In this document: positions 12,556 through 14,118 of the stretch, piece by piece
How the letters are laid out: each line of letters starts with the position of its first letter
Numbering within the stretch: position 1 is the first letter of the stretch
UHGV virus genome: UHGV-0876952
DNA: 24,924 bases
Strand: one strand, 5' to 3'
Source: a virus
The notes under the pieces: model-generated
The model's input: only the letters and a program-made list of their open reading frames with translations
What the model was told of the DNA's origin: nothing
Database searches by the model: none
Program-made: the position numbers and the translations under genes

Positions 12556-12611
12556 TTTACAGTCTGCATTATAAAGCTATTAAAGCCTCGATCAATCTAT
12601 TAATTAAGGCA

Positions 12612-12645
12612 TTGTTTGGTTAACATTAGCCTAATATTTTATAGT
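12612..12645 (+). promoter_or_regulatory. candidate promoter for the AT-rich island (TTGGTT-N18-TATAGT)
   Basis: Hexamers read directly, about 20 bp upstream of ATG 12666. Confidence 0.3.
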
Positions 12646-12665
12646 TAGTAGAGTGAAATACATAC

Positions 12666-13643
12666 ATGCCTTTTTTAATTTTCATTATTATACTACTGCT
12701 CACCGTCATTTTTTGGGATTGGGTTGTTTTAAATGGTCAAACTGTTGGAACATTGGCTACAGCATTTGCTTTTATAGCAACAGCATGGAATGCCTACGAA
12801 GCGAGAAAAAGTGCAAAAGCAGCTTTTTCAGCCCTTCAATTAACAACTGAATCATTGTTCGAAATGCGAAAGAGTGCATTTAAACAATGGTTTGATTCCT
12901 TATTAAATCAACATGATGAGTTATGTCTTCTTGCAAAACAAATTATCGATAAACACAAAATTAATTTAAACAGCGATGAGTTACATAGACTATATTATCC
13001 ATTGGTAAGACAGCATGAGGTAATACAGTATGTGAAGCATATTATTAATATATTTGAGTATGTGGATGGTTCATTTTATATTGATGGGGAATGTCTCAAG
13101 GAAAAAAGAGCGTATGTGTCACAATTAATTTTTAAAATCCCACCTCAGATGAAGTTGATCATTGCTATCTTTGGATTAAAAATCGATTATTGTGAACATA
13201 TTAATTCGGAAAAACTGTGTTGTTTATTGAATAAATATGATTTTTTCAATGATGAAATATTTTTTGATGATGCTTATTCAAATATGCCTTATCTGGATAC
13301 ATTCATAAACCTTAGATTCAACAAAATATTCAAATCTCGAATGATAAATTATTTTGATAATATCATTAAAAGTTATTATGTTCCATCGGACGTTAAAAGG
13401 GACTGGATGTTTCGACACCCAAAGCTCGTACCGTCGGTTCTTATGAATTATAAAACTCCTTGTTCTCCTATAATTAATGATTACTTTGAGAAGTTGCCTT
13501 TACATGTAAGAAACTACTTTGAGGAACTACTTAAAACCGCGAATGATAGAGTTACTCATTTTGACGTTTACATCCCACGCCTTATTGGTTGTTCAATCGT
13601 GCAACATTACGAAGATGTGCCTTCGAAAAAACAGGTTAAATGA
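12666..13643 (+). CDS. hypothetical membrane-anchored protein (two N-terminal TM helices), AT-rich accessory gene
   Basis: 325-aa ORF. N-terminal hydrophobic segments FLIFIIILLLTVIFWDWVVL and TVGTLATAFAFIATAW, then a Lys/Asn/Tyr/Phe-rich soluble domain with no motif I recognise. Codon usage strongly AT-biased relative to neighbours. Confidence 0.7.
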   Translation: MPFLIFIIILLLTVIFWDWVVLNGQTVGTLATAFAFIATAWNAYEARKSAKAAFSALQLTTESLFEMRKSAFKQWFDSLLNQHDELCLLAKQIIDKHKINLNSDELHRLYYPLVRQHEVIQYVKHIINIFEYVDGSFYIDGECLKEKRAYVSQLIFKIPPQMKLIIAIFGLKIDYCEHINSEKLCCLLNKYDFFNDEIFFDDAYSNMPYLDTFINLRFNKIFKSRMINYFDNIIKSYYVPSDVKRDWMFRHPKLVPSVLMNYKTPCSPIINDYFEKLPLHVRNYFEELLKTANDRVTHFDVYIPRLIGCSIVQHYEDVPSKKQVK

Positions 13644-13662
13644 CAGGAATGATGTAATAGCT

Positions 13663-13926
13663 ATGGCTGAAGATTACATCGAGAAAAGAAAATCTAATCA
13701 ACTAGATTACATACTTGAAGATATATACTTTAAGAGTGACGAAGATATAATCCCAGGCCACCATTTAATTGTGGCATTTGATGACTATGAATATAAATTA
13801 GCACTAATTAAGATAAATGAAAATAAAGATAACGATAATCTTTTAAATCGAATTTATACTGAATCCAGTAGCATGGTTAATGAATATAAGCGCGAAATAT
13901 TAAAATTGGGCGACTATGCAAAGTAA
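13663..13926 (+). CDS. hypothetical small acidic protein (partner of the upstream membrane protein)
   Basis: In-frame ATG at 13663 within track ORF 13519..13926, 19 nt after the upstream stop, preceded by AGGAA. 87 aa, acidic. The track's longer N-terminus overlaps the upstream gene and is unlikely. Confidence 0.55.
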   Translation: MAEDYIEKRKSNQLDYILEDIYFKSDEDIIPGHHLIVAFDDYEYKLALIKINENKDNDNLLNRIYTESSSMVNEYKREILKLGDYAK

Positions 13927-13940
13927 ATTGCACTGTTCAA

Positions 13941-13971
13941 CAAAAAAGGGGCCGAAGCCCCTTTGAATTTT
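13941..13971 (+). terminator. rho-independent terminator (A-tract, GGGGC-CGAA-GCCCC, T-tract)
   Basis: Canonical GC stem with flanking A- and T-runs, 15 bp after the island's last stop; potentially bidirectional. Confidence 0.7.
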
Positions 13972-14118
13972 GCGCTGAAAAAAGTGTTGCTAGGATATTA
14001 GCAAGCTATGGTTAAGAACGTCTGCCGTAATTATCTATCACAGCGTTGAGCGGTCTGGTTTATGTTAGCGGAGTCTTAATCGAGTTGATTAAAAGGCCAA
14101 ACCGCTCAACGCTGTGTC

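What the first reader, a model, noticed from the sequence alone, without database searches (positions are those of the whole stretch)
12600..13975. AT-rich two-gene island of unknown function (2-TM protein + small acidic protein) between glutaredoxin and the tRNA cluster
The segment is visibly far more AT-rich than the rest of the window (my by-eye estimate is about 30% G+C against 45-50% in flanking genes). It is on the opposite strand to its neighbours and has its own candidate promoter (TTGGTT-N18-TATAGT) and a canonical terminator (13941-13971). Neither the 325-aa protein with two N-terminal TM helices nor the 87-aa acidic protein shows any motif I recognise. It sits next to a tRNA cluster and a tyrosine recombinase, a typical setting for horizontally acquired cargo such as defence, superinfection exclusion, abortive infection or toxin-antitoxin modules. 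This is the best candidate in the window for an undescribed system.
Basis: partly seen in the sequence, partly recalled or inferred. Interest (0 to 1): 0.85.

Follow-up and report, generated by a model that had tools for sequence, protein, structure and literature searches.

The report
Frameshifted AbiC-like phage-defence gene
The AT-rich "two-gene island" is really one accessory gene of a phage-plasmid, a divergent membrane-anchored relative of the lactococcal AbiC/AbiP abortive-infection proteins, split in this copy by a 2-base loss, so it is a new member of a known but poorly understood anti-phage family and not an undescribed system.

Summary
The low G+C is real: 31.7% against 45.9% for the rest of the window, the lowest stretch in it. 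The + strand orientation is also correct. The "two genes" are one gene. All 40 finished E. coli plasmids carrying this allele have an uninterrupted 1,263-nt, 420-aa CDS. The window lacks one C and one A in adjacent runs (CCGA7 to CGA6, about 13625-13631), giving a 325-aa ORF and an 87-aa ORF that is simply residues 334-420. The window has other isolated 1-nt indels that break a backbone gene, so sequencing error or decay is likely. The protein has no direct Pfam or PADLOC hit. Its family of 66 representative clusters links it to Pfam putAbiC: 38 of 51 relatives hit that model, and hhalign gives 100% probability, E 1.8e-51. The architecture, an N-terminal TM hairpin plus a helical domain with no known fold relative, matches AbiC/AbiP. 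It occupies a variable slot (grxA | X | tRNA-Ser) of SSU5-type phage-plasmids, alongside divergent alleles, an unrelated AT-rich gene, or nothing. The N-terminal half is conserved and the C-terminal part is hypervariable. Best reading: a single-protein abortive-infection-type defence carried as cargo. It is a new member of a known kind, of modest interest.

The parts
12492..13940 (.). AT-rich variable cassette, lying between the grxA start codon and the conserved backbone hairpin
   Evidence: G+C is about 0.31. Alignments with relatives that carry other slot contents lose similarity directly upstream of the grxA ATG and regain it at the hairpin.
12666..13926 (+). abiC-like gene. It is 1,261 nt here; the intact form is 1,263 nt and 420 aa (WP_113519372.1 / WP_001718056.1 in relatives).
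   Evidence: It is a single CDS in pLAU-OXA1, pSCMY1 and pGMI17-003_2. PHROG 18168 spans both ORFs. Restoring the two bases gives an open 420-aa frame.
12666..13643 (+). ORF1, 325 aa: residues 1-320 of the protein plus 5 out-of-frame residues (KKQVK) and a TGA stop
   Evidence: PHROG 18168 positions 2-312, E 5e-172
13663..13926 (+). ORF2, 87 aa: residues 334-420 of the same protein, starting at an internal Met. It is not a separate gene, and no Shine-Dalgarno sequence sits at a usable distance.
   Evidence: PHROG 18168 positions 322-408, E 1e-33; alignment A2; sequence
13620..13632 (+). Lesion site: CCTTCGAAAAAAC here against CCTTCCGAAAAAAAC in relatives (CC to C and A7 to A6, net -2 nt)
   Evidence: All 40 complete RefSeq E. 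coli genomes with this allele have the intact tract. A8 or A6 variants occur in five short-read assemblies.
12669..12797 (+). N-terminal membrane hairpin: TM1 at residues 2-22 and a second hydrophobic helix at about 24-44, followed by the invariant ATAWNAYEARKSAKAA motif
   Evidence: Hydropathy; AF2 helices 2-22 and 24-96; invariant columns
12993..13265 (+). Region equivalent to the Pfam putAbiC domain (residues about 110-200), the most conserved part of the soluble domain
   Evidence: putAbiC hits in relatives map to residues about 122-219; conservation profile; hhalign
13266..13926 (+). Hypervariable C-terminal half (residues 201-420), a candidate specificity or sensor module. The last 100 residues are cut off by the frameshift.
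   Evidence: Mean column identity is about 0.2 against 0.4-0.6 in the N-terminal half. Slot alleles are 11-22% identical over residues 311-420 against 40-53% at the N-terminus. pLDDT is above 90 in this part.
12616..12645 (+). Promoter-like motif TTGGTT-N18-TATAGT. It is weak and unproven.
   Evidence: Read from the sequence. It falls below the scan's threshold, and such sites are not enriched here.
13945..13964 (.). Bidirectional intrinsic-terminator hairpin, GGGGCCGAAGCCCC within an 8-pair stem, with T6 on the - strand and TTTGAATTTT on the + strand. It is part of the backbone, not of the cassette.

Best explanation
The segment is a single-gene accessory cassette in a variable slot (grxA | X | tRNA-Ser) of an SSU5/pHCM2-type phage-plasmid. 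It encodes one 420-aa protein with three parts: an N-terminal transmembrane hairpin, a conserved all-helical core homologous to Pfam putAbiC, and a hypervariable C-terminal helical subdomain. The protein is a divergent member of the AbiC/AbiP group of single-protein abortive-infection defences. The likely mode of action is inferred from the family, not shown here. The resident phage-plasmid expresses the protein from its own promoter. The hairpin holds it at the inner membrane with the large domain in the cytoplasm, as the positive-inside rule suggests (R47, K48, K51 directly after the second helix). The variable C-terminal part recognises a component of an infecting phage; for AbiP the trigger is a structural protein. 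The conserved N-terminal module then stops late phage development, by analogy with the reduced capsid-protein production seen with AbiC and the nucleic-acid binding and failed transcription switch seen with AbiP, or possibly through membrane damage. This protects the lysogen population and so the element. In this window the gene is interrupted by a 2-nt loss in adjacent C and A runs. The copy therefore either encodes only a truncated product lacking the last 100 residues, or has been mis-sequenced. Sub-claim confidences: one gene and not two, 0.97; homologous to the putAbiC family, 0.9; anti-phage defence function, 0.6; the specific sensor/effector division, 0.3.
For: One gene: PHROG 18168 covers ORF1 (positions 2-312) and ORF2 (322-408). 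It is a single 1,263-nt CDS in relatives. A 2-nt gap is the only difference at the junction. Adding back C and A gives an open 420-aa frame. Family: 66 representative clusters were found by the exhaustive profile search. 38 of 51 full-length members hit PF16872 putAbiC, with a best E of 1.4e-11. Close relatives score 18-22 bits, and P0024 and P0028 score 32.7 and 36.2 bits against a cutoff of 22, all in the same region. 7 of 51 hit PADLOC AbiC and 4 of 51 hit AbiP. hhalign of the window's clade against the putAbiC-positive clade gives 100% probability, E 1.8e-51, over 406 columns. Erwinia and Pantoea relatives are annotated 'putative phage abortive infection protein'. Architecture: the TM hairpin plus a helical domain with no fold relative matches the description of AbiC and AbiP in PMC13064643. 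Cargo: low G+C, variable slot contents, presence in 39 of 168 matching E. coli genomes, and neighbouring slots that hold a YafO toxin or a colicin-immunity gene in relatives. The conserved N-terminal half and hypervariable C-terminal half are as expected for an effector plus specificity module.
Against: The window's own protein and its 98%-identical intact form give no hit to Pfam putAbiC or PADLOC AbiC even at E 10, so membership rests on links through relatives and on profile-profile comparison. Several polar residues that are invariant in the mainstream clade are replaced in the window's clade (the R and N/D of RSxIRND, the N of AVNA, the E-H of FFEH), so the biochemical activity may differ. 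No member of this clade has been tested. A lactococcal 'AbiC-like' protein 38% identical to AbiC gave no resistance to the phages tested (PMC11381338). Chromosomal relatives sit mostly among housekeeping genes, so the neighbourhood gives no clear defence signal. The mechanism of AbiC itself is unknown. No direct comparison with the AbiC sequence or structure was possible here.
Confidence: 0.6

Rival explanations
1. This is a real two-gene module (toxin-antitoxin, or effector plus small acidic partner).
For: Two ORFs with separate ATG codons exist in this window. The 87-aa product is called as a separate gene in several public assemblies.
Against: The 87-aa ORF is collinear with residues 334-420 of a single protein in every finished relative. 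The split is caused by a 2-nt loss. Other assemblies with the 87-aa call have different tract lengths (A8, A6), so they are independent lesions and not a conserved arrangement. No ribosome-binding site precedes the internal ATG.
Confidence: 0.03
2. The gene is a superinfection-exclusion or other membrane-level immunity factor. It would block DNA entry or act at the envelope without killing the cell, as opposed to an abortive-infection protein.
For: The protein is membrane-anchored and encoded by a temperate element on its own transcription unit. No enzymatic motif or known fold was found. AbiC's own phenotype, a partial drop in capsid protein, does not prove cell suicide.
Against: It is homologous to the AbiC/AbiP group, whose members act after DNA entry. 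The roughly 375-residue domain is predicted to be cytoplasmic by the positive-inside rule (an inference), which fits an intracellular target better.
Confidence: 0.12
3. The A7 tract is a functional on/off switch (phase variation, or rescue by transcriptional slippage) that controls a costly defence gene, and the window shows the off state.
For: A6, A7 and A8 alleles are seen in independent samples. The 87-aa fragment is recorded on at least 11 contigs.
Against: None of the 40 finished genomes is off-length. An A7 run is about what is expected by chance in a 1.26-kb gene this AT-rich; this is my own rough estimate of about one such run, not a tool result, and one search shows five further runs of six A or T in the same gene. 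The tract is not conserved in divergent alleles. The window's state is -2 nt and includes a C loss, which simple A-tract slippage does not give.
Confidence: 0.07
4. The frameshift is real, and this copy is a decaying pseudogene in a defective element, not a sequencing artefact.
For: The lesion is present in the sequence given. The CobT-related backbone gene is also broken twice, as expected in a degenerating element. Independent disruptions of this gene exist elsewhere, such as pSCU-306-2 and L011.
Against: Three of the four frame-breaking indels are single-base losses in homopolymers within otherwise 98-99% identical sequence. That is typical of long-read or flow-based sequencing error. The exact 325-aa product is not on record in any other assembly.
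Confidence: 0.4
5. The gene has a non-defence accessory function for the phage-plasmid itself, such as lysis timing, membrane remodelling or host-range modulation.
For: No tested phenotype exists for this clade. Key polar residues of the mainstream family are replaced. Chromosomal relatives are not clearly in defence islands.
Against: The gene is dispensable, being absent from most related elements. It is replaced by unrelated AT-rich genes in the same slot. The pattern of hypervariability is typical of conflict genes and not of life-cycle functions.
Confidence: 0.1

Closest known systems
AbiC (Prf) of Lactococcus lactis plasmid pTN20, in the 'AbiC/P' group of PMC13064643
   Same: Both are single-protein systems with two N-terminal transmembrane helices followed by a helical extra-membrane domain that has no recognisable fold relative. 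Both are carried on a mobile element, and the gene is much more AT-rich than its surroundings. The family link runs through Pfam putAbiC and PADLOC AbiC hits in relatives.
   Different: At 420 aa it is longer than AbiC, which I recall as about 344 aa (from memory, not checked here). The host is enterobacterial and the carrier is a phage-plasmid. The window's protein is not detected directly by the putAbiC or AbiC models. Several conserved polar residues differ. No phenotype is known.
AbiP of Lactococcus lactis
   Same: It is membrane-anchored and its helical domain is related to that of AbiC. 4 of 51 family members hit the PADLOC AbiP model. Some family members have only one TM segment, as AbiP does.
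   Different: AbiP has one TM helix and a demonstrated nucleic-acid-binding activity. Neither feature has been shown for this protein.
Pfam PF16872 putAbiC ('putative phage abortive infection protein') proteins of Erwinia, Pantoea and other Enterobacterales
   Same: They are homologous over the full length (hhalign E 1.8e-51) and have the same architecture. PGAP names those relatives 'putative phage abortive infection protein'.
   Different: The phage-plasmid clade falls below the Pfam gathering score (0-22 bits) and is annotated 'hypothetical protein' everywhere.
PHROG 18168 (unknown function)
   Same: It is a direct, near-full-length match (E 5e-172 and 1e-33).
   Different: The PHROG carries no functional label. 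The link to putAbiC was made here.

Membership tests
Pfam PF16872 putAbiC | The protein itself scores at or above the curated gathering score (22 bits) | tested here: not met
   ORF1 and the intact 420-aa P0001 give no hit even at E 10. The nearest relatives score 18.0, 19.2 and 22.0 bits.
Pfam PF16872 putAbiC | Homology to proteins that pass the threshold, with the domain in the equivalent position | tested here: met
   38 of 51 family members hit putAbiC. P0024 and P0028 score 32.7 and 36.2 bits at residues about 132-219. hhalign of A6 against A7 gives 100% probability, E 1.8e-51, over 406 columns. tblastn with P0028 reaches pSCMY1.
AbiC/P group (lactococcal AbiC and AbiP) | One or two N-terminal transmembrane helices | tested here: met
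   TM1 is at residues 2-22 and a second hydrophobic helix is at about 24-44. Most relatives show two segments and some show one.
AbiC/P group (lactococcal AbiC and AbiP) | The extra-membrane domain is similar in sequence or structure to AbiC or AbiP | tested here: inconclusive
   The PADLOC AbiC model hits 7 of 51 relatives (best E 1.3e-6) and the AbiP model hits 4 of 51, but neither hits the window's protein. No AbiC or AbiP sequence or model was available for direct superposition. The afdb50 library was unavailable.
AbiC/P group (lactococcal AbiC and AbiP) | Confers resistance to phage by aborting infection after DNA entry | not testable with these tools
   This needs plaque, burst and survival assays.
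Type II toxin-antitoxin or other two-gene module | Two separate, co-conserved genes | tested here: not met
   It is one CDS in all 40 finished genomes. ORF2 is residues 334-420 of the same protein.
Septu PtuB (HNH nuclease) | A significant, reproducible match to the PtuB model | tested here: not met
   ORF1 gave E 4e-4 over residues 30-128, the coiled stalk. The 98%-identical full-length protein and two relatives gave nothing at E 10. I treat the match as chance.
Variable accessory ('moron' or defence) slot of a mobile element | Deviant composition, conserved flanks, and different contents in related elements | tested here: met
   G+C is 0.317 against 0.459. Flanks are conserved up to the grxA ATG and from the hairpin onward. 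The slot holds the 420-aa allele, 33-40%-identical alleles, an unrelated 302-aa gene, or no + strand gene.

The most novel reading that the evidence does not exclude
The enterobacterial phage-plasmid clade is a functionally distinct and so far unrecognised branch of the AbiC/P family. In this reading, the hypervariable, exchangeable C-terminal subdomain of about 100-200 residues sets which phage is sensed. The branch has also replaced the mainstream family's conserved polar residues, which would imply a different effector chemistry, for example membrane disruption by the invariant TM-hairpin/ATAWNAYEARKSAKAA module. The A7 run would then serve as a mutational on/off point for a costly gene.
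Probability: 0.15. Interest if true: 0.55.

Novelty: new member of a known kind. Interest (0 to 1): 0.3.

Why it matters
The gene is annotated 'hypothetical protein' in every record I examined, and the Pfam and PADLOC models miss it. A DefenseFinder survey of SSU5-group phage-plasmids lists no AbiC. Recognising it as an AbiC/P relative adds a probable defence gene, and a defined variable slot, to a phage-plasmid group common in clinical Escherichia, Klebsiella, Enterobacter and Salmonella. The natural series of alleles, with a conserved N-terminal half and a hypervariable C-terminal half at one locus, offers material in E. coli for working out the still unknown mechanism of AbiC/AbiP-type proteins. 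For the genome scan, it also shows how a frameshift, probably a sequencing error, can pass for a two-gene system.

Full report
Observation. The compositional anomaly is real. Positions 12600-13975 have 31.7% G+C against 45.9% for the rest of the window. This is the lowest 1,376-nt stretch in the 24.9 kb, and the next lowest is 41.5%. Third-position G+C is 0.28 against about 0.50 in the neighbouring integrase, glutaredoxin, polymerase and ligase genes. The coding is on the + strand, between a - strand integrase/grxA pair and four - strand tRNA genes (Ser, Thr, Tyr, Asn). The two ORFs exist as described, at 12666..13643 (325 aa) and 13663..13926 (87 aa, pI 4.7). The TTGGTT-N18-TATAGT motif is at 12616-12645. 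It matches only 3 of 6 in the -35 hexamer, the consensus scan did not call it, and promoter-like sites are not enriched in this AT-rich stretch (5 found against 8.7 in shuffles).

One gene, not two. PHROG 18168 is a single family of 408 positions. ORF1 matches its positions 2-312 (E 5e-172) and ORF2 matches positions 322-408 (E 1e-33). In related E. coli plasmids of about 110 kb the locus is one 1,263-nt CDS of 420 aa (pLAU-OXA1, pSCMY1, pGMI17-003_2). A DNA alignment shows that the window differs at the junction only by two missing bases. Relatives read CCTTCCGAAAAAAACAGG and the window reads CCTTCGAAAAAACAGG, so one C and one A are missing from adjacent runs. Putting them back gives an uninterrupted 420-aa frame. 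ORF1 is therefore residues 1-320 plus five out-of-frame residues. ORF2 is residues 334-420, starting at an internal Met with no usable ribosome-binding site.

Is the lesion real? All 40 complete RefSeq E. coli genomes that carry this allele have the intact CC/A7 tract. The exact 325-aa product is not on record anywhere else. The same 87-aa fragment is called on several other contigs, but those carry A8 (four samples) or A6 (one sample), so they are independent tract-length changes. I also compared the window with its closest finished relative (98.4% identity). That comparison shows further isolated 1-nt indels, including a +T at 8511 and a T6 to T5 change at 9003. Those two break the conserved CobT-related backbone gene into three ORFs. 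Four frame-breaking indels in two genes, three of them in homopolymers, make sequencing error the somewhat more likely cause, at roughly 0.6. A decaying element cannot be excluded.

What the protein is. Neither the fragments nor the intact protein hits any Pfam, NCBIfam or PADLOC model. A weak PtuB match to ORF1 was not reproduced with the full-length protein, and I discard it. An exhaustive profile search of 1.84 billion representatives found only 66 clusters, mostly of 416-470 aa. Of 51 full-length members, 38 hit Pfam PF16872 putAbiC ('putative phage abortive infection protein'), with a best E of 1.4e-11. Seven hit PADLOC AbiC and four hit AbiP. Members that align end to end with the window's clade (P0024 and P0028, E 1e-35 and 1e-28) exceed the putAbiC gathering score, at 32.7 and 36.2 bits against 22. 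Closer relatives score 18-22 bits in the same region. A profile-profile comparison of the window's phage-plasmid clade with the putAbiC-positive clade gives 100% probability and E 1.8e-51 over 406 columns. Erwinia and Pantoea plasmid relatives are annotated 'putative phage abortive infection protein'. Homology to this family is therefore secure, although the window's clade lies below the detection threshold of the standard models.

Conservation pattern. The N-terminal half is conserved, with mean column identity of 0.4-0.6. It includes an invariant ATAWNAYEARKSAKAA motif in the close clade, and Y122, F193 and F194 are invariant family-wide. Residues 201-420 are hypervariable, at about 0.2. Among alleles occupying the same slot, identity to the window type is 40-53% at the N-terminus but only 11-22% over residues 311-420. 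Several polar residues invariant in the mainstream clade are replaced in the window's clade. No catalytic-looking constellation is conserved.

Context. The window is part of an SSU5/pHCM2-type phage-plasmid. Its flanks match Escherichia phages Cyrano and CMS-2020a and many non-mobilizable plasmids of 105-116 kb from Escherichia, Klebsiella, Enterobacter and Salmonella. The cassette runs from the grxA start codon (about 12492) to a hairpin at 13945-13964. The hairpin belongs to the backbone, because it is present even where there is no + strand gene, and it has its better T-run on the - strand. In relatives the slot holds one of four things: the same gene, alleles 33-40% identical to it, an unrelated AT-rich 302-aa gene, or only a - strand gp49-family gene. 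The full gene is present in 39 of 168 E. coli genomes whose plasmids match the island query. The adjacent slot between the integrase and grxA is empty here, but it holds a YafO toxin with a partner, or a 184-aa ORF, in relatives. All slot occupants are AT-rich, at 0.29-0.38 G+C. A DefenseFinder survey of SSU5-group elements lists no AbiC.

Mechanism. What is shown here is one gene, membrane-anchored, homologous to putAbiC and to AbiC/AbiP, and carried as variable cargo. What is inferred is the function. The most likely function is single-protein abortive-infection-type defence of the lysogen. In that model the variable C-terminal part senses a phage component and the conserved N-terminal module acts as effector. 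The analogies are AbiC, which lowers capsid-protein production without blocking DNA replication, and AbiP, which is membrane-anchored, binds RNA and ssDNA, and is triggered by a major tail protein. I put defence at about 0.6 and the particular sensor/effector division at about 0.3. The rivals are exclusion at the membrane (0.12), a non-defence accessory role (0.1), an A-tract on/off switch as an added layer (0.07), and a real two-gene module (0.03). Chromosomal relatives are not clearly embedded in defence islands, so that line of evidence is inconclusive.

Verdict. The compositional observation is confirmed and the two-gene anatomy is not. The 'acquired defence cargo' reading is supported in kind, but this is a new, divergent member of a known family and not an undescribed system. 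This particular copy is interrupted, quite possibly by sequencing error. Interest is modest, at 0.3. The value lies in recognising an unannotated AbiC/P clade and its variable slot in clinically common phage-plasmids.

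Noticed in passing
window 7881-9989 (- strand); indels at 8511 and 9003: The CobT-related backbone gene is one 2,109-nt CDS in pGMI17-003_2 and in phage Cyrano. In the window it is split into three ORFs (215, 149 and 345 aa) by a +T at 8511 and a T6 to T5 change at 9003. Other isolated 1-nt differences lie at 2811 (G7 to G6), 15094 (T5 to T4), 21581 and 23768. Together these suggest that the window's sequence carries homopolymer-type errors, or that the element is decaying.
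   Followed up: partly
window 13626-13631 and loci L009-L014: The poly-A run inside the abiC-like gene varies between independent samples. It is A7 in the intact form, A8 in four short-read assemblies (326 + 87 aa), A6 in one (324 + 87 aa), and A6 plus a lost C in the window. None of 40 finished genomes is off-length.
   Followed up: yes
L008 2153-3061 (NZ_CP190020, pEC17CM6_2): The same grxA | tRNA-Ser slot holds an unrelated AT-rich (29% G+C) 302-aa protein, WP_001755525.1, in this plasmid. It has no Pfam hit but contains an RHTIVHN stretch reminiscent of a HEPN Rx4-6H motif, so it may be another defence candidate. The HEPN idea was not tested.
   Followed up: partly
window 12036-12245 (between integrase and grxA); L008 610-1638; L007 704-1258; L004 826-2286: A second variable slot lies between the integrase and grxA. 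It is empty in the window. In relatives it holds a YafO-family toxin with a 201-aa partner, a 184-aa hypothetical protein, or, in Klebsiella, a colicin-E1-type immunity gene as well.
   Followed up: partly
window 14039-14116: A 20-nt inverted repeat (95% complementary, 38-nt loop) sits directly downstream of the - strand tRNA-Ser. It is conserved in all backbone relatives aligned. It could be a processing or terminator hairpin, or a recombination site. No Rfam family matches it.
   Followed up: no
window 14119-14669: The tRNA cluster varies between relatives. The window has Ser-Thr-Tyr-Asn with a 217-nt gap between Ser and Thr. Phage Cyrano has Ser-Thr-Asn packed within 9 nt of each other and lacks Tyr. 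The tRNA-Ser(UGA) falls below the Rfam tRNA gathering score and scores best with the tRNA-Sec model (44.8 bits against 47), presumably because of its long variable arm.
   Followed up: partly
window 2863-6369 compared with L015 2988-7300: The DNA polymerase III alpha gene is one 1,168-aa ORF in the window. In pGMI17-003_2 it is interrupted by an HNH endonuclease gene, and a LAGLIDADG homing endonuclease lies nearby. Homing-endonuclease content therefore differs between close relatives.
   Followed up: no
window 18958-19027 and 22538-23765 compared with L015: Further backbone differences from the closest relative: about 2 kb present in L015 (a TPR protein plus a hypothetical protein) is absent from the window at about 18958-19027, and a non-homologous replacement lies at 22538-23765. 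These look like additional variable spots of this phage-plasmid group.
   Followed up: no
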